Assembly: GCA_000002445.1 (NCBI GenBank)
Contig: CP000067.1
Span: 1,216,001 to 1,280,000, forward strand
Direction of reading: 5' to 3'
DNA: 64,000 bases
From: Trypanosoma brucei
Taxonomy: Eukaryota
Numbering within the stretch: position 1 is the stretch's first letter; each line of letters begins with the position of its first letter. Positions 11,101-25,400 of this stretch are shown here, in pieces. Made by a program: the position numbers.

Positions 11101-14100
11101 CAAGGGTTGGCCCTGAGTTCTACACCCACCGCCGCCATCGTCATTATTCATTGGACTTCCGTCCCCACTACGAACACTAGCACTAGAAGCAAGCCTCCAA
11201 CACGCGGTGCTGAAGCTCACGCTGAGGCTACCAGCATCCTTTGAGAGCTGCTGCGAAGTAACGCTTGAGCCACACAATGTTGCCGAGCGATCTGATTTTT
11301 CTCCCCTTGAAAAATTAGTCGACCGCAGACGATCTTTGAATGGCACAAACGTCCTTTGTGGTTGCTGCTGTTGTTGATCAGGTCCATCAATTGGTTTTGG
11401 TCCTGCAACTACTGGATCAAGAGTTACCGGGCACTGCGGCAGCTTAGCGGATGAAACGAAGCGCACGTGCATCAGCGGAAGAGTTACTGAGGGTTGCATC
11501 TGCTTATGGCAATCACTCGCCCCACGATTGAACCGTTCGGCCAGAGGACCGTGAAGTAACATCTGGGAAAGGGGTGTAGTTGGATTTGGTGGTGGTGTCG
11601 CACTGCGGCGGCGGGCGATGAGCAACTCATTTCCACGTGGTGAATATGGACTGCTTCCACTCGGAGTACGTTCAAATGCCTTGGGAGGTCTCCAATTTGG
11701 TATGGGTGTGAAAATATCACTACTGCTGCTTTCGGCGCTGTCAGCACCGGTACCTCCACCGCTATTAGAACTCATATGCTACGCAGCGGCCCTAAATGAT
11801 GCAGGTCAATAAACGAATTCACGGACACGTAAACCAACCGCTTCAGATTCTGGCCAGCCTTTGTGAGGCCACGTGTCCACGCCCTCTGCAACTATTTTTC
11901 TCCTCGTCGACTACTTCCGGAACAACACTTATATATATATATATATATATATATAAGCTACTCCAACTATCCGCCTTGCCCTTTCCCCCACACCCTTCCG
12001 ATGTCGCAGCCAATATTGTTGTTTTCCTCGTGGTACTCTTAATCGAGTTCACTATACCTGAACAAATGTTTGGATATGGTGTGAACGCAGTCAAGAACAC
12101 AACGAAAGAAAAAATTCCCCTTTCCCTGGACTTTACGTATTAATACTTTGCTCCCTAATGTACCACACCAATTGCTTATTCCTATCCAAAGTAAATATAT
12201 GTATATGTGTGTGCGTGCGTGCGTGCGACTTCTTTGTTGTTTTTTTTATTTTCCTTCTTCTCGTTTCTCCTTCTTATTCCCGTCTTCCTGTGTTGTGTTG
12301 TATAGTCGTGTTCTTTTTTTTTTTTTTACCCAATCTGGGGTGGCTGGCAATGCGGCGCGGTGCCGCAATCCAAACACACTTCTATTCTCACTCGAGCAAA
12401 GTCTCTTGTTTTTCTTTTTTTTTCCCCCCCCGCTCTTCCCTTTGCTCAAACGAGTTTCACAAAAACACACACACACACGCACACACACACACTTCTGCTG
12501 CTTCCTTCTCCAGCAGCTTAAATGAATTTATTTGTACTTTATCAAGTTGTAATAATATTCCTGAGTCCTCCTACCTTCTTTTTTTCTTGTTCTTGTTGAG
12601 GTGTTCCTCTCCCTTTGATGCTTTCAATTTCAGTACCGGCGCCGTGATTGTGGCGGTAGGGGAGGAGAAGTAGAAGGGTGAACAAATTGATAAAATAAAA
12701 ATAAAATAAAAATAAAAATAAAACAGGAAAAGACAACAAAGTGCCTCTTCTCTCTGTCGTGTCACACTACACTTGTTGCTTACACACGCAGTTCAATGTG
12801 GCGCAAAAAAAAAATTAATTAATTAATTAATTAATTAAATAAAATTTTAAAAAAATGATAAAGATAAGAAACAATAGAAATAAAGATAAAAGTGAAATGA
12901 AGATTCAGAGATGAGATGAGATGAGATGAAAGCAACAACTCAACCGCTAGTTGAGGTGAAAATATTCACAAAAGAGGGAAGTGATGTTGATGGTTTTTAA
13001 GTCGTATCAAATGACACACAATCATGGAAATAAATACATAAAGATGTATGAATATGAGCGTATGTGTTTTGTTTCGAAAGAAGGAAAAATAAAAATAAAA
13101 ATAAAAGAAGGGAGAGTGTTGTAAAGGTCCCAATGGAAACCTTCATTACAGAAAGTTTTTTTTTTTTGGAAATATTGGTGGGTTACATATAAAAAAAATA
13201 TGTGTATGCTATTTAAAAAACAAACAAACAAACGGAGCGAAGGATTCACGATGCCGCTGGTACTAAAGTCCTGCAAGGGCTTCACACGATACGAAAGCAT
13301 GGGAAGAAAAATAAAATAAATAGAAATATATATATATGTTTGCGAGAAATCAATTGCTACTTTTTAGTTTTTCTGGAGTAATGACACTTTGCGAATGAAT
13401 CAAATAAAATCACTTCTTCTCACTGCAGCTTCCGACTGCTTTTTGTTTGTTTGTTTATTTTTGTTGTATATATATATATATATATTTTATGTGGTTATCC
13501 GCTAACGATATTTTTCATTTGCTCAACCCTAAACTAAATGTTACACCTTGATTCTCTTCATTTCATCTTGAAATGTTGGAATGCGATCCCTTTACACCTT
13601 TTTTGCTTCAGGTTGCAGCGTCCTCACATCATCGGCTCTCGTTTTTGTTTTTGTTTTGAAGGAAGAGGAGGAAGAGGAGGAGGAGGAGGAGGAAAAAAAG
13701 AAGGGAATAAATTCTTTTTTTTCTTTAAAAAAAAAAAGGACTCTTCACTTATTTAGCTGTTGCTTCCTTCTTTTTTTTCCTTTATTTCCTTTTCTTTCTT
13801 CCTCCTCCTTCCAATCCCGTTTCCTTCACTTTAACTGCTCATATACTTACCTTGCTTCTAAACCTACAAATACGTATAGAAAACAACAACAACAACAACA
13901 GCAGCAAAAAAAAAAAAAAGGAGAGGGGGGTGGTTGTGGTGGTGGTGGTGGGACAGAAAGTCACATGCAAAGAAGGAAAGTGATAGAAAGTGATAGAAAG
14001 AAGGCAAAAATGCCAACGTATACAAACACACAAATATGCAAATACATATGTTTTTTTTTTCTGCAAATAACTATAAGGACGTATATGTATATGTGTAAAT

Positions 14101-22433: not shown

Positions 22434-25400
22434 TTATTTATTTATTTATTTCCCCCCTTCCCCTTCAGTTATTAATCATTTTTGTTCCTTTTGAGCATTT
22501 TACTTTCCTTTCTTCACCCCACTCCACCCCAACATTCACACACTCATATATATATATATATATATATGTACACGTACCCGCTTTAAAAACCAAACGAGGT
22601 TTGCGCCGGCATAATACCACGGGTAGATTACAAAGGAATCTGTTCTTTTTTGTTTTTGTTTATTTGCTTGTTTTTTATTTTCCTTTTTGTCATGAAGGCG
22701 TGTGTATGTGTGCACATACGCGGAAGAGTAGGTGAAGAAAGGAAAGGAGGGGATAAGGGTATAACGAAAAATGAAAAAAAAATGTGGGAGGAGATAACAC
22801 CACGTAGGTTGCGAGGGGTTTCGAAACTGTTCCTTTCGTCAGCCAGTAACAACGTGAACAGCGAAGATAATCGTGACCTAGCAAAGTAGGGAAAAGTATT
22901 GAAATACAAAATTAGAAAGACAATGTCGATGATGGAAGAAAACAAGAAATTCACTCAATTGTCATCAAAGCTACCAAATGGCCTGTGTCCATTGATGTTT
23001 GTAGCCGAAAACCCCCAAGAGGCGGTTACTTTGGCATCAACGCCCAAGTTAGCAGACTCAGAAATTGTTGCAACGTCATCTGATGGGGCGGTGAATGAGA
23101 GGTTGTGGCATTGAGTCACAACATCATCTGCCCTCTCAACCTGGCAGCCATCACCGTTGATATCTCTTCCAGATGTTATATTTGTTTGCCCCGCGTTATC
23201 GTAGTCCACATCACTTATATCGTTGAGGGGCGCTTCAGGCACAACACCAGCGTCAGAAGCAAATTGCTCGGCAATGGACGCACCGACGTGTTCCATAGGT
23301 ATACTAGAGTGAGTGATATCTCCACCGAAATCATCGCAGCCTTCAGCATCGTAGCCATTTTCAAACACACCGCACTTTTGATCCTTCAGGTCTTGCGGAA
23401 GGAAGAACTCAGAGGGTACTGCTTGCACCACTTCTGATGACGAGACTCGCGCTTCTTCTCCCTCCCCCGCTGGTGTCGATGGCAACACCGGTCGTGCGGT
23501 GGCGAGAAGTTGAACAGAAACGGCCTGATTGGCATCTTTACCCGGAAGTTTTCCAACACGGAAGGCTACGCGGTCACCTGCGCTGAGTGCGCGGAAGCCA
23601 TGCATTCGGATGTACGACTGGTGCACAAAAACATCGCCGACAGCCACTGGTGTCCTCTCTAGAGTGGGTTGCGGTGGTGTGGTTTGCTGCTGCTGCTGTG
23701 ACCTGCCGTCAGCATTACCATCACTGAAAGTCCCACTACCTCCACTAGGCGAAGTAACTTGTAGATGATGCGTTGCCGTAAGAAAGCCGAAGCCACGCAT
23801 CGGGTTGTATCGCTTAACAATCCCTTCGTACCACTCGCCAAGACCGTACATCATTCCATTGCCATGCCTGCTCACTACAGCGGCTATCGGTGGCGGTGGT
23901 GGTGGTGGTGGCGCTGGTGCTAACGCGACTCCGGGTTGTAGTGCTGCTGGTGTTGACCCGTGAGATAATACCACATAAACGGACGGCGAAGGAGGTGGTG
24001 GCATTAAGTTCCAAGGGCACGGTGAGACGGTGGCCGGCGGCATGGGGCTGGCATTGCCGGGGCCGCTGATACCGCCACCCCCACCAAGCGAATGATATTG
24101 CGGATGTTGAGGGTGGAGCGGAAAGGCATTTCCAGCGTTACCACCAGCGATCAGAAGCTTTTCGACGCTGTGAAAAACGGCTGGGCTGCCGGCATTGGTT
24201 GGTTGTGCACTTGGAGCGCTACCGTTGAGGTTTAGCGATGTCGAAGGCACAGAACCTTGTGAGTGCGGCGGCGGCGGCGAAGTCAACTTCGCAAACGGAC
24301 CGTCTGCCCGCGTAACTCGAATGAGCTGACGCGACGGAAGTGCCATCAGTGGTTGCGGTCCTGGCGAGGTGCTCAGCGGAGCACTGGTCGATGCGGTGAG
24401 GGGGTTGACGGTATTCAAGGAAGCTACAAGAACGCCGTCGTGAGTGCATACAGTGGGATGGAAGAGCATGTCACTCAGGTTGATAGCACTTACTGCTGCT
24501 TAATATAAATTGTGAGAAAGAGAAGTGCAAATTAACTAGTTCCTCTCTGCGTTCTTGTATTCCTCAGTCCTGTTTCAAACCCTGCGCCGCTCCGTTCCCC
24601 GCCCTTTTTTGTTTTTTTTTCGGTTAACGGAATATTGCTGGGTGAGAGCGGAACAAATGGTGTTCGTCACACCTGCTGCTTACGCGCAGGTCTTTTCTTT
24701 TTTTCTTCTCCTGTTTTGGAAGTTGCGTCCCCTCCTATTTGCTTTCCCTTCTTTTCACCTTTTTTTTTGTGTTCAACGAATATGTAACGTGACAAGTGAG
24801 CGCCCTCTAACACAAAAATGCACGCGTTTTTATTAAAATACAGGCTGTGTCCCCACACACAAAAAGAAAAAGAAAGACAAAGAAGAAGAGGAAAAATGCG
24901 TGAGAAAGGTTCGAGATAAGAGCTGTTAAAGAAACCCCAGGGTCTACATGCGTAAAAAAAAAAAGCAAACAATAATAGAATTAGTGTTTGTGCGCGTGCT
25001 TTGGGTGGTGAGCAGGTAAGCAGGGCAATCCCTACATCTCTTAGAACAAGAATAGTAACTATAACGGATGTTAACCGTAAAAAGAGGGAAAGAAATTGTT
25101 ACTGCAAACGCCTCAGAGGATTGTACGCAGATCTCCACGTACCAAAAAGGAGACCCTAGCAAAGGATCTAAATCAGTCTGCCTTGTAAAGCACCGCAACG
25201 CAACCGCCTGATGAAGCATTTCTTCTTCATGGGACAACGGGACTCAACTAGAGACTTCAAGAGTTACGAGGGGAAGAAGGCCCAGTGGTTGGCTTAACTT
25301 TCCTTTAAGCAGGTAAATTAGGATGTAACACCTCGGTGCCATCCGTGCAGGTTAAACAAACAGTGAAGAGAGGGGAGAGAAAATATATAACATCCGAGAT

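What the first reader, a model, noticed from the sequence alone, without database searches (positions are those of the whole stretch)
11776..22954. An 11.2 kb gene-free low-complexity island inside a unidirectional gene array
The cold-shock gene ends at 22955 and the next gene downstream in transcription, the PP2C gene, starts at 11775. The 11.2 kb between them hold no ORF with protein-like composition.

The DNA is a mosaic of 100-500 bp blocks that flip between strong A-richness and strong T-richness on the same strand. It is punctuated by homopolymers of 10-17 nt and dozens of short microsatellites: (TA)n, (AC)n, (GA)n, (CAA)n, (AATT)n, (ATA)n, (CTAAAA)n and (TAGCA)n. I could not see any long-period tandem repeat such as a 147-bp or similar unit.

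Other spacers in the window are 0.1-4.6 kb. Transcript UTRs plus a splice-acceptor region alone would not need this length. The polarity flips mean it lacks the consistent pyrimidine bias of an ordinary UTR strand.

Possible explanations are a transcription termination and re-initiation boundary within a head-to-tail array, a centromere-like or chromatin-organising region, a replication origin, or an unusually long 3'UTR.
Basis: seen in the sequence. Interest (0 to 1): 0.65.

Follow-up and report, generated by a model that had tools for sequence, protein, structure and literature searches.

The report
Giant non-coding tail of trypanosome CSD2
The 11.2 kb gene-free, AT-rich stretch is real and lies directly downstream of the Trypanosoma brucei developmental regulator gene CSD2; it is most likely an unusually long untranslated tail of that gene's mRNA, a known kind of feature in trypanosomes, and not a centromere or an assembly error.

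Summary
The window is Trypanosoma brucei chromosome 4. All its genes are on the minus strand.

The 11,179 bp between CSD2 (Tb927.4.4520, 22955-24469) and the PP2C gene (Tb927.4.4510, 7147-11775) hold no credible gene, known RNA family or long-period repeat. GC is 31%, against 43% in the other spacers and 54% in coding DNA. Homopolymers, microsatellites and A-rich/T-rich flips far exceed shuffles.

The island is not an artefact. A PacBio T. b. equiperdum assembly has 11,144 bp here and T. b. gambiense has 11,322 bp, both collinear with the window.

A long gene-free spacer with similar A/T-flip texture follows the CSD homologue wherever I looked:
- the chromosome 8 paralogue CSD1: 9.0 kb
- T. 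congolense: 6.8 kb
- T. conorhini: 5.5 kb
- T. rangeli: 4.5 kb
- Leptomonas: 9.9 kb

The sequences do not align and the downstream neighbour differs. So the feature travels with the CSD gene, as a very long 3'-UTR would. Published work places the longest trypanosome 3'-UTRs on RNA-binding-protein and kinase mRNAs.

The chromosome 4 centromere is mapped elsewhere. I found no transcript data, so the extent of the UTR is inferred. Verdict: an ordinary kind of feature, an extreme example, of modest interest.

The parts
22955..24469 (-). CSD2 coding sequence (Tb927.4.4520), a cold-shock-domain RNA-binding protein. The island lies directly downstream of its stop codon.
   Evidence: Pfam CSD hit, E 3e-11. 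100% identical to T. brucei TREU927 / T. equiperdum protein XP_844601. Gene ID and role in metacyclogenesis come from PMC10270622 and PMC2212663.
11776..22954 (-). The island: 11,179 bp of AT-rich, low-complexity, gene-free DNA on the transcribed strand. Proposed to be mostly the CSD2 3'-UTR.
   Evidence: Length is conserved at 11,144 bp in PacBio T. b. equiperdum and 11,322 bp in T. b. gambiense.
22439..22954 (-). Stop-proximal segment of the proposed 3'-UTR. GC rises from about 30% near 22439 to about 40% next to the stop codon.
   Evidence: GC is 39-41% in the windows nearest the stop and 30-35% in those covering 22439-22700. No substitutions and one 2-bp indel over 516 nt against T. equiperdum OVI, whose contig ends here at a (TA)n tract.
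21620..22160 (-). First long U-rich block on the sense strand (52% U). A candidate internal trans-splicing/polyadenylation signal that could give a short 3'-UTR isoform.
   Evidence: Composition. Polypyrimidine tracts at 21934-21953, 21820-21835 and 21663-21679. Use of these sites is inferred, not shown.
12190..12440 (-). Distal purine-rich block (45% A, 25% G), including an A14 run at 12314-12327. Predicted zone of the distal poly(A) site, which would give a 3'-UTR of about 10.5-10.8 kb.
   Evidence: The position is inferred from the established rule that trypanosome poly(A) sites lie a short distance upstream of the next polypyrimidine tract (as summarised in PMC2212663, and PMC9380746).
12058..12114 (-). 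Predicted PP2C trans-splicing signal: a polypyrimidine tract at 12083-12114 and the first downstream AG at 12058-12059. This implies a 5'-UTR of about 282 nt to the ATG at 11775.
   Evidence: This is a sequence prediction only.
7147..11775 (-). PP2C gene (Tb927.4.4510), the next gene downstream in transcription.
   Evidence: Pfam PP2C hit, E 4e-34. Cluster members are listed. It is single-copy on chromosome 4 (PMC2212663 supplement).
13650..13835 (-). Example of an adjacent purine-rich and pyrimidine-rich block pair that folds back on itself as RNA.
   Evidence: MFE -60.4 kcal/mol, z -3.8. Inverted repeat I7. Only sub-threshold Rfam miRNA-precursor hits.
15640..15760 (-). Second example: a poly(U)-rich / poly(A)-rich fold-back.
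   Evidence: MFE -32.6 kcal/mol, z -3.3. Inverted repeat I9.

Best explanation
The island is the transcribed non-coding region downstream of CSD2 inside one polycistronic RNA polymerase II unit. Most or all of it is the 3'-untranslated region of the CSD2 mRNA, up to about 10.6 kb.

**Proposed mechanism.**
- The precursor RNA is cut and polyadenylated a short way upstream of the polypyrimidine tract and AG (12058-12114) that direct spliced-leader addition to the PP2C mRNA.
- The long A/U-rich, low-complexity tail acts as a platform for many RNA-binding proteins. These set the stability, translation and developmental timing of CSD2, itself a regulator of metacyclic development.
- The 22 internal polypyrimidine tracts on the sense strand are potential alternative processing sites. 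They must normally be suppressed, as DRBD18 does for other long 3'-UTRs, or they are used to make shorter isoforms.

**Shown here.** The anatomy, the reality and length stability of the island, the absence of genes and known RNAs, and the fact that the feature travels with the CSD gene across paralogue and species.

**Inferred.** That the stretch is present in the mature mRNA, where its 3' end lies, and that it regulates expression.
For: **Position.** The island starts at the CSD2 stop codon, on the same strand as all 15 genes of the window.

**A long spacer follows the CSD gene in every genome examined.** Each is gene-free.
- CSD1 on chromosome 8: 9,039 bp at 30% GC in T. b. equiperdum, and 7.4 kb with an assembly gap in T. 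b. gambiense. There the downstream gene is Tb927.8.7830, not PP2C.
- T. congolense: 6.8 kb to PP2C.
- T. vivax: at least 4.7 kb.
- T. conorhini: 5.5 kb to a kinase gene. T. rangeli: 4.5 kb. In both loci every other spacer is 0.4-1.7 kb.
- Leptomonas pyrrhocoris: 9.9 kb.

**The texture is largely shared, not the sequence.**
- Strong A/T flips occur at 1.2-2.0 per kb in the chromosome 8, T. congolense, T. conorhini and T. rangeli spacers. T. vivax and Leptomonas have 0.6 per kb. Other spacers in the window have 0-1.05 per kb.
- Nothing aligns between these spacers.

**Published context.**
- The longest trypanosome 3'-UTRs belong to RNA-binding-protein and kinase mRNAs. The RBP10 3'-UTR is 7.3 kb, full of low-complexity sequence, (AU)n and poly(A) tracts, and holds at least six regulatory segments (PMC8982893).
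- The DRBD12 mRNA is 8.4 kb, and DRBD18 blocks internal polypyrimidine tracts in long 3'-UTRs (PMC9380746; PMC11260167).
- CSD2 is an RNA-binding developmental regulator (PMC10270622, PMC7952579). Its mRNA is stage-regulated, 3.8-fold up in bloodstream forms (PMC2771046).
- A transposon insertion in intergenic DNA at Tb927.4.4520 raised its expression 5-fold (PMC3581582).

**RBP10 motif.** The RBP10 target motif UA(U)6 occurs once on the sense strand and 13 times on the antisense strand. RBP10 pull-down did not enrich CSD2 mRNA (1.3x), whereas CSD1 mRNA was scored as bound (2.6x) and has five sense motifs.
Against: **No transcript evidence.** I found no RNA-seq, spliced-leader, poly(A)-site or Northern data for this gene. 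No paper or held supplement gave a CSD2 3'-UTR length.

**Many internal processing signals.** The sense strand has 22 polypyrimidine tracts of 15 nt or more, most followed closely by AG. Any of these could end the mRNA early and turn the rest into separate non-coding RNAs.

**No sign of sequence constraint.**
- Substitutions run at 12.8-19.6 per kb, equal to or above other spacers.
- Indels are 3-10 times more frequent than in other spacers.
- Any function would therefore have to lie in length, composition or short degenerate motifs.

**Weak points in the supporting evidence.**
- The UA(U)6 asymmetry partly reflects which microsatellite units happen to be present, and it is one motif.
- The position of the transposon insertion relative to the gene is not stated.
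Confidence: 0.6

Rival explanations
1. Short CSD2 3'-UTR plus long non-coding RNAs. The precursor is processed at internal polypyrimidine/AG sites. CSD2 mRNA then carries only the first 0.6-3 kb, and the remainder yields one or more spliced-leader-capped, polyadenylated lncRNAs or unstable by-products.
For: - The sense strand has 22 polypyrimidine tracts of 15 nt or more, most with an AG within 60 nt. The first long U-rich block begins about 0.8 kb after the stop codon.
- More than 1,400 lncRNAs are annotated in T. brucei (from my own knowledge of PMC9200285; listed but not read). Novel non-coding RNAs arise from within 3'-UTRs when DRBD18 is depleted (PMC9380746).
Against: - Comparable internal tracts exist in the RBP10 and DRBD12 3'-UTRs, which are nevertheless mostly made as full-length mRNAs.
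- No lncRNA at this locus turned up in the one lncRNA supplement that was searchable.
- The sense strand has fewer polypyrimidine tracts than the antisense strand, 22 against 38.
Confidence: 0.22
2. Largely functionless spacer. It would be AT-rich DNA inflated by replication slippage, possibly including the fully decayed remains of a lost kinase gene. It is carried along passively in the transcript and tolerated, not selected.
For: - Substitution rate is no lower than in other spacers, and indels are very frequent at homopolymers and microsatellites.
- There is no alignable conservation with the paralogue or with other species.
- A FYVE-PH kinase gene lies between CSD and PP2C in T. conorhini and T. 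rangeli and is missing here.
- The CSD-to-PP2C distance is similar across species, at 6.8-11.2 kb.
Against: - A long spacer is retained downstream of the CSD homologue in all seven other loci examined, including Leptomonas, and in both T. brucei duplicons, despite complete sequence turnover.
- On chromosome 8, loss of both the kinase and PP2C genes did not make the spacer longer than on chromosome 4. Dead genes are therefore deleted and do not accumulate.
- Length differs by less than 2% among three T. brucei subspecies despite about 18 indel events per kb.
- This reading is compatible with the stretch being a 3'-UTR. It disputes only its function.
Confidence: 0.12
3. Chromosome-level element inside a head-to-tail gene array: an RNA polymerase II termination and re-initiation zone, or a replication origin.
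For: The island is exceptional in size and AT content for this window. Its many purine/pyrimidine tracts and fold-backs could favour unusual DNA structures.
Against: - There is no strand switch, tRNA or snRNA gene, or retroelement.
- The feature is tied to the CSD gene across species with different downstream neighbours.
- In T. brucei, origins and polymerase II boundaries are reported mainly at the ends of transcription units. This rests on my own knowledge and was not checked here.
- No chromatin or replication data were available to test this.
Confidence: 0.05
4. Centromere or an assembly artefact.
For: AT-richness. A short-read T. equiperdum assembly breaks inside the island.
Against: - There is no tandem array of about 30 or 147 bp.
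- The chromosome 4 centromere is mapped between Tb927.4.3740 and Tb927.4.3750, with no other repeat array on the chromosome (PMC1868937).
- Two independent assemblies, one of them PacBio, give a collinear, gap-free 11.1-11.3 kb.
Confidence: 0.01

Closest known systems
The 7.3 kb 3'-UTR of T. brucei RBP10 mRNA, and the long 3'-UTRs of ZC3H22 (over 5 kb) and DRBD12 (mRNA 8.4 kb)
   Same: - It lies downstream of a gene for a developmental RNA-binding regulator.
- It is many kilobases long and A/U-rich, with numerous low-complexity tracts, (AU)n repeats, poly(A) tracts and internal polypyrimidine tracts.
- It sits inside a polycistronic unit.
   Different: - At up to about 10.6 kb it would be longer than any of these.
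- Its presence in the mature mRNA and any regulatory activity have not been shown.
- It carries almost no UA(U)6 motifs on the sense strand (1 in 11 kb), whereas ZC3H22 has nine.
The spacer downstream of the paralogue CSD1 (Tb927.8.7820) on chromosome 8
   Same: - It has the same origin, through the chromosome 4/8 duplication.
- It is also gene-free, with 30% GC and the same A/T-flip texture (1.96 against 1.88 flips per kb).
   Different: - It is 9.0 kb rather than 11.2 kb.
- The sequences cannot be aligned (PMC2212663 gives a 3'-UTR identity of 0.22).
- The downstream gene is different.
- CSD1 has five sense UA(U)6 motifs and is bound by RBP10, whereas CSD2 is not.
T. brucei centromeric AT-rich repeat domains
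   Same: AT-rich, several kilobases long, gene-free.
   Different: Centromeres are tandem arrays of units of about 30 or 147 bp. They lie at strand-switch regions flanked by degenerate retroelements, and on chromosome 4 the centromere is between Tb927.4.3740 and Tb927.4.3750. The island has none of these features.
Intergenic lncRNA loci of T. brucei (for example grumpy, TblncRNA-23)
   Same: Non-coding sequence between protein-coding genes within a transcription unit, with its own potential splice-acceptor signals.
   Different: No evidence was found for an independently processed RNA here. The described lncRNAs are far shorter than 11 kb (from my own knowledge; one search gives only titles and abstract openings).

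Membership tests
Very long regulatory 3'-UTRs of trypanosome regulator genes (RBP10 type) | Begins at the stop codon on the transcribed strand of a polycistronic unit, with no intervening gene before the next splice acceptor | tested here: met
Very long regulatory 3'-UTRs of trypanosome regulator genes (RBP10 type) | The gene encodes an RNA-binding protein or kinase with a regulatory role | tested here: met
   Pfam CSD hit. CSD2 is an RNA-binding regulator of metacyclogenesis (PMC10270622, PMC7952579).
Very long regulatory 3'-UTRs of trypanosome regulator genes (RBP10 type) | A/U-rich low-complexity content: (AU)n, poly(A), poly(U) and internal polypyrimidine tracts | tested here: met
   compared with the description of RBP10
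Very long regulatory 3'-UTRs of trypanosome regulator genes (RBP10 type) | The whole stretch is present in one mature, polyadenylated mRNA | not testable with these tools
   No transcript data were available, and no published length was found.
Very long regulatory 3'-UTRs of trypanosome regulator genes (RBP10 type) | Fragments confer regulated expression on a reporter | not testable with these tools
   The only hint is indirect: an intergenic transposon insertion at Tb927.4.4520 raised expression 5-fold.
T. brucei centromere | Tandem array of AT-rich repeats of about 30 or 147 bp | tested here: not met
   TRF finds only periods of 27 bp or less with few copies. Self-BLAST finds no long repeats.
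T. brucei centromere | Lies between divergent or convergent gene clusters, flanked by degenerate retroelements | tested here: not met
   All genes are on one strand. The island's ten longest ORFs have no Pfam domain, so no retroelement protein domain was found.
T. brucei centromere | Topoisomerase-II cleavage or kinetochore protein binding | not testable with these tools
   Published mapping puts the chromosome 4 site at Tb927.4.3740-3750.
RNA polymerase II termination/re-initiation site within a head-to-tail array | H3.V/base J followed by H2A.Z/H4K10ac enrichment | not testable with these tools
   No chromatin data were available.
RNA polymerase II termination/re-initiation site within a head-to-tail array | Frequent association with tRNA, snRNA or other polymerase III genes | tested here: not met
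   No tRNA. No Rfam family at gathering score.
Replication origin | ORC1/CDC6 binding and an MFA-seq peak | not testable with these tools
   No such data were available.
Independent lncRNA gene | Its own spliced-leader addition site and poly(A) site, giving a discrete RNA | not testable with these tools
   Candidate signals exist, but their use is unknown.

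The most novel reading that the evidence does not exclude
A downstream region of 5-11 kb, built as a purine/pyrimidine and A/U mosaic, is an ancient selected attribute of the CSD developmental-regulator genes from Leptomonas to T. 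brucei. Selection would act on length and texture, not on sequence. Possible roles include a multi-protein scaffold, a sponge for RNA-binding proteins, or a transcription and processing delay line that times CSD expression during metacyclogenesis. At about 10.6 kb it would be the longest 3'-UTR described in a trypanosome.
Probability: 0.15. Interest if true: 0.55.

Novelty: new member of a known kind. Interest (0 to 1): 0.27.

Why it matters
CSD2 and CSD1 trigger development of the mammal-infective metacyclic form of T. brucei, and how their own expression is controlled is not known.

If the 11 kb tail is a 3'-UTR, it would be the likely control region for CSD2 and one of the longest in the parasite.

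The comparison across species suggests that length and composition are kept while sequence turns over completely. That bears on the open question, raised by the Clayton laboratory (PMC8982893), of why some trypanosome 3'-UTRs are so long.

Practically, the locus shows that short-read assemblies break here. It also shows that gene models placed inside such islands are spurious, such as the two small antisense ORFs annotated in T. b. gambiense.

The finding does not reveal a new kind of element.

Tried and rejected
**Hidden features in the island.**
- Known RNA genes: Rfam at gathering score over the whole window found nothing. At E of 1 or less it gave only sub-threshold plant miRNA-precursor hits, which reflect purine/pyrimidine fold-backs. 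There are no tRNAs.
- Hidden protein genes: the ten longest ORFs have no Pfam hit. tblastx against six orthologous and paralogous spacers gave only low-complexity noise.
- Relic of the kinase gene found between CSD and PP2C in T. conorhini and T. rangeli: tblastn found nothing in the island.
- Relic of the Tb927.8.7810-like gene in the spacer upstream of CSD2: none.
- Conserved non-coding blocks shared by chromosome 4, chromosome 8 and other species: only low-complexity matches.
- Long or dispersed repeats: none.

**Alternative readings.**
- Assembly artefact: rejected.
- Centromere: rejected.

**Literature searches for direct evidence.**
- A published CSD2 3'-UTR length or an lncRNA annotation at this locus was sought in the supplements of PMC8982893, PMC9380746, PMC10090614, PMC11260167, PMC9200285 and PMC10048164. 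Files were either absent or did not contain the gene.
- No paper mentions Tb927.4.4510.

**Motif counts.**
- ANACAU, the CSD1 binding motif, is mildly enriched on the sense strand (29 against 17, z 3.2). I did not pursue this, as it was one of many motifs tried on low-complexity sequence.

Full report
**Identity of the window.**
- The 504-aa ORF at 22955..24469(-) carries a cold-shock domain. It is 100% identical to a protein recorded for T. brucei TREU927 and T. equiperdum, on a 1,590,432-bp chromosome.
- Published tables name it Tb927.4.4520, or CSD2. Its chromosome 8 paralogue is Tb927.8.7820, or CSD1.
- The neighbours are Tb927.4.4530 (SPRY, 27245..30670), Tb927.4.4510 (PP2C, 7147..11775, single-copy) and Tb927.4.4500 (621..4133) (PMC2212663; PMC10270622).
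- All 15 credible genes in the window are on the minus strand. The window is therefore the interior of one polycistronic unit.

- The gap between the CSD2 stop and the PP2C ORF start is 11,179 bp. The other spacers are 0.13-4.6 kb.
- The island is not just longer than other spacers. It is also different in kind:

| Measure | Island | Other spacers (pooled) |
|---|---|---|
| GC | 31.1% | 42.7% (coding 54%) |
| A/T homopolymers of 10 nt or more | 3.5 per kb | 0.84 per kb |
| Microsatellites | 4.7 per kb | 0.9 per kb |

- Against dinucleotide-preserving shuffles:
  - homopolymers of 10 nt or more: 39 observed, about 4 expected
  - (AT)5+: 13 observed, 0 expected
  - pure purine or pyrimidine runs of 15 nt or more: 60 observed, about 2 expected
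- The A-rich/T-rich mosaic is real. The SD of AT skew in 200-nt windows is 0.339, against 0.084 in shuffles. There are 21 flips between strongly skewed windows.
- TRF reports only short-period arrays. Self-comparison finds no long repeats.
- No known RNA or protein signal was found:
  - no tRNA
  - no Rfam family at gathering score
  - no Pfam domain in the ten longest ORFs
  - no conserved peptide by tblastx against related spacers
- Two small corrections apply. The longest homopolymer is 14 nt, not 17. The PP2C start may be 213 nt further downstream, because TREU927 annotates 1471 aa and the first 90 residues are not conserved in T. congolense.

**The island is not an assembly artefact.**
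- Short-read T. equiperdum OVI contigs reproduce window 22439-22954 and 11776-17446. They break exactly at (TA)n tracts.
- A PacBio T. b. equiperdum chromosome has a gap-free, collinear spacer of 11,144 bp.
- T. b. gambiense DAL972 has 11,322 bp at 30.9% GC.
- Length therefore differs by less than 2% among subspecies. Meanwhile sequence change is rapid:
  - substitutions run at 12.8-19.6 per kb, similar to or above other spacers (8-17 per kb)
  - indels open at 4.6-18 per kb, against 1.5-6.3 per kb elsewhere, almost all at homopolymers and microsatellites

**The feature travels with the CSD gene.** A long gene-free spacer follows the CSD homologue in every genome I could reach:

| Genome / locus | Spacer downstream of the CSD gene | Next gene |
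|---|---|---|
| T. b. equiperdum chr 8 (CSD1) | 9,039 bp, GC 30% | Tb927.8.7830 (PP2C lost from this duplicon) |
| T. b. gambiense chr 8 (CSD1) | 7.4 kb, includes an assembly gap | Tb927.8.7830 |
| T. congolense | 6.8 kb | PP2C |
| T. vivax | at least 4.7 kb (contig ends) | not reached |
| T. conorhini | 5.5 kb | FYVE-PH kinase |
| T. rangeli | 4.5 kb | FYVE-PH kinase |
| Leptomonas pyrrhocoris | 9.9 kb, GC 37-48% against 62-68% coding | 1841-aa gene |

- In the T. conorhini and T. rangeli loci, all other spacers are 0.4-1.7 kb.
- Strong A/T flips occur at 1.2-2.0 per kb in the chromosome 8, T. congolense, T. conorhini and T. rangeli spacers. T. vivax and Leptomonas have 0.6 per kb.
- Nothing aligns between any of these spacers beyond low-complexity matches. 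This agrees with the published 3'-UTR identity of 0.22 for the CSD1/CSD2 pair.
- A property that stays attached to one gene while its downstream neighbour changes is what a 3'-UTR predicts. It is not what a chromosomal landmark predicts.

**How it most likely works.**
- In trypanosomes the whole unit is transcribed. An mRNA's 3' end is set by the next functional polypyrimidine tract and AG, which direct spliced-leader addition to the downstream mRNA and coupled polyadenylation upstream. This is established knowledge, summarised.
- The last such signal before PP2C is the tract at 12083-12114, with the first AG at 12058-12059.
- Just upstream is a purine-rich block at 12190-12440 that includes an A14 run.
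- If this is the site used, the CSD2 3'-UTR is about 10.5-10.8 kb and the mRNA about 12.5 kb.
- Published work supports the class:
  - The longest 3'-UTRs belong to RNA-binding-protein and kinase mRNAs.
  - The RBP10 3'-UTR is 7.3 kb, is rich in low-complexity sequence, (AU)n and poly(A) tracts, and holds at least six independent regulatory segments (PMC8982893).
  - DRBD12 mRNA is 8.4 kb.
  - DRBD18 binds long 3'-UTRs and prevents use of their internal polypyrimidine tracts (PMC9380746; PMC11260167).
- CSD2 fits this class. It is an RNA-binding regulator needed early in metacyclogenesis. Its mRNA is 3.8-fold higher in bloodstream than in procyclic forms.
- Two indirect observations agree with a regulatory tail:
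  - An intergenic transposon insertion at Tb927.4.4520 raised its expression 5-fold. The exact site is not given.
  - The RBP10 target motif UA(U)6 occurs once on the sense strand and 13 times on the antisense strand. In RBP10 pull-downs CSD2 mRNA was not enriched (1.3x), whereas CSD1 mRNA was (2.6x) and has five sense motifs.
- I treat the motif asymmetry as a lead only. It partly depends on which microsatellite units are present.

**What is not shown.**
- I found no transcript data or published UTR length for CSD2.
- The sense strand carries 22 polypyrimidine tracts of 15 nt or more, most followed by AG within 60 nt. A 540-nt U-rich block starts 0.8 kb after the stop.
- A short CSD2 3'-UTR plus downstream non-coding RNAs is therefore a live alternative.
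- The lack of nucleotide constraint means that much of the length could be passive.
- The kinase gene that sits between CSD and PP2C in T. conorhini and T. rangeli is found in T. cruzi, T. grayi and bodonids. It does not appear among the best 120 hits from T. brucei, T. congolense or T. vivax. It was therefore probably lost in the salivarian lineage at this very place.
- No relic of the kinase remains. On chromosome 8, loss of both the kinase and PP2C did not lengthen the spacer beyond that of chromosome 4. Dead genes are evidently removed, while a long spacer persists.

**Rivals at the chromosome level.**
- The chromosome 4 centromere is a 3.5 kb array of 147-bp repeats between Tb927.4.3740 and Tb927.4.3750. 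It lies at a strand switch flanked by retroelements, and there is no other repeat array on the chromosome (PMC1868937). The island has none of these features.
- A polymerase II boundary or a replication origin cannot be tested from sequence. Nothing supports either one: there is no polymerase III gene and no strand change.

**Anatomy worth noting.**
- Adjacent purine-rich and pyrimidine-rich blocks are often mutually complementary. There are 99 inverted pairs of 20 nt or more within 400 nt of each other.
- Two examples fold significantly better than shuffles, with z of -3.8 and -3.3. This explains the sub-threshold miRNA-precursor hits in Rfam.
- Such fold-backs follow naturally from the mosaic. 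I do not claim that they have a function.

**Verdict.**
- The island is an extreme example of a known trypanosome feature, not a new kind of element.
- The one mildly new point is that length and texture downstream of CSD genes persist across trypanosomatids while sequence turns over completely.

Noticed in passing
L006 16784-18847 (T. conorhini) and L007 15896-17968 (T. rangeli); corresponds to window 11776-22954: A FYVE-PH-domain 'rac serine-threonine kinase' gene lies between CSD and PP2C in stercorarian trypanosomes. It is missing from T. brucei chromosomes 4 and 8 and from the T. congolense locus. Homologues appear in T. cruzi, T. grayi and bodonids, but none from T. brucei, T. congolense or T. 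vivax among the best 120 hits. This suggests loss in the salivarian lineage, with no relic left.
   Followed up: partly
window 24470-27244; L002 8116-9036: A 306-aa gene (Tb927.8.7810-like, 46% identical to a T. conorhini gene) sits between the SPRY and CSD genes on chromosome 8 and in stercorarians. It has no trace in the corresponding chromosome 4 spacer.
   Followed up: yes
window 11562-11775: The PP2C start codon is ambiguous. The open frame starts at 11775 (1542 aa; T. equiperdum 1542/1540 aa and T. b. gambiense 1545 aa use this upstream start), but TREU927 annotates 1471 aa. The first 90 residues or so are not conserved in T. congolense.
   Followed up: partly
window 22402-22451, 22546-22567 and 17427-17446: Short-read T. 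equiperdum OVI contigs end exactly at (TA)n tracts inside the island. The central 5 kb is therefore missing from those two contigs.
   Followed up: yes
window 13200 (sense); 14271-21461 (antisense): The RBP10 recognition motif UA(U)6 occurs once on the transcribed strand and 13 times on the opposite strand. Published RBP10 pull-down data score CSD1 mRNA as bound and CSD2 mRNA as not bound.
   Followed up: partly
window 13650-13835 and 15640-15760: Purine-rich/pyrimidine-rich fold-backs with folding z-scores of -3.8 and -3.3. They give sub-threshold hits to plant miRNA-precursor families in Rfam, and they are generic hairpins, not family members.
   Followed up: yes
L012 17169-17468 and 18132-18389 (T. 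b. gambiense chromosome 4 island): Two small antisense ORFs (99 and 85 aa) are annotated as genes inside the island in T. b. gambiense. They have no Pfam hit on record and are probably spurious.
   Followed up: partly
chromosome 8 locus (L002/L003), not in the window: According to Obado et al. 2007, the chromosome 8 centromere lies between Tb927.8.7740 and Tb927.8.7750. That is only a few genes from CSD1 (Tb927.8.7820) and its 9 kb spacer. The chromosome 4 copy of this region has no centromere.
   Followed up: no
window 51593-56177: The second-longest spacer in the window (4.6 kb, GC 42%) lies between a 1083-aa gene and a protein kinase gene. It may be another long 3'-UTR.
   Followed up: no
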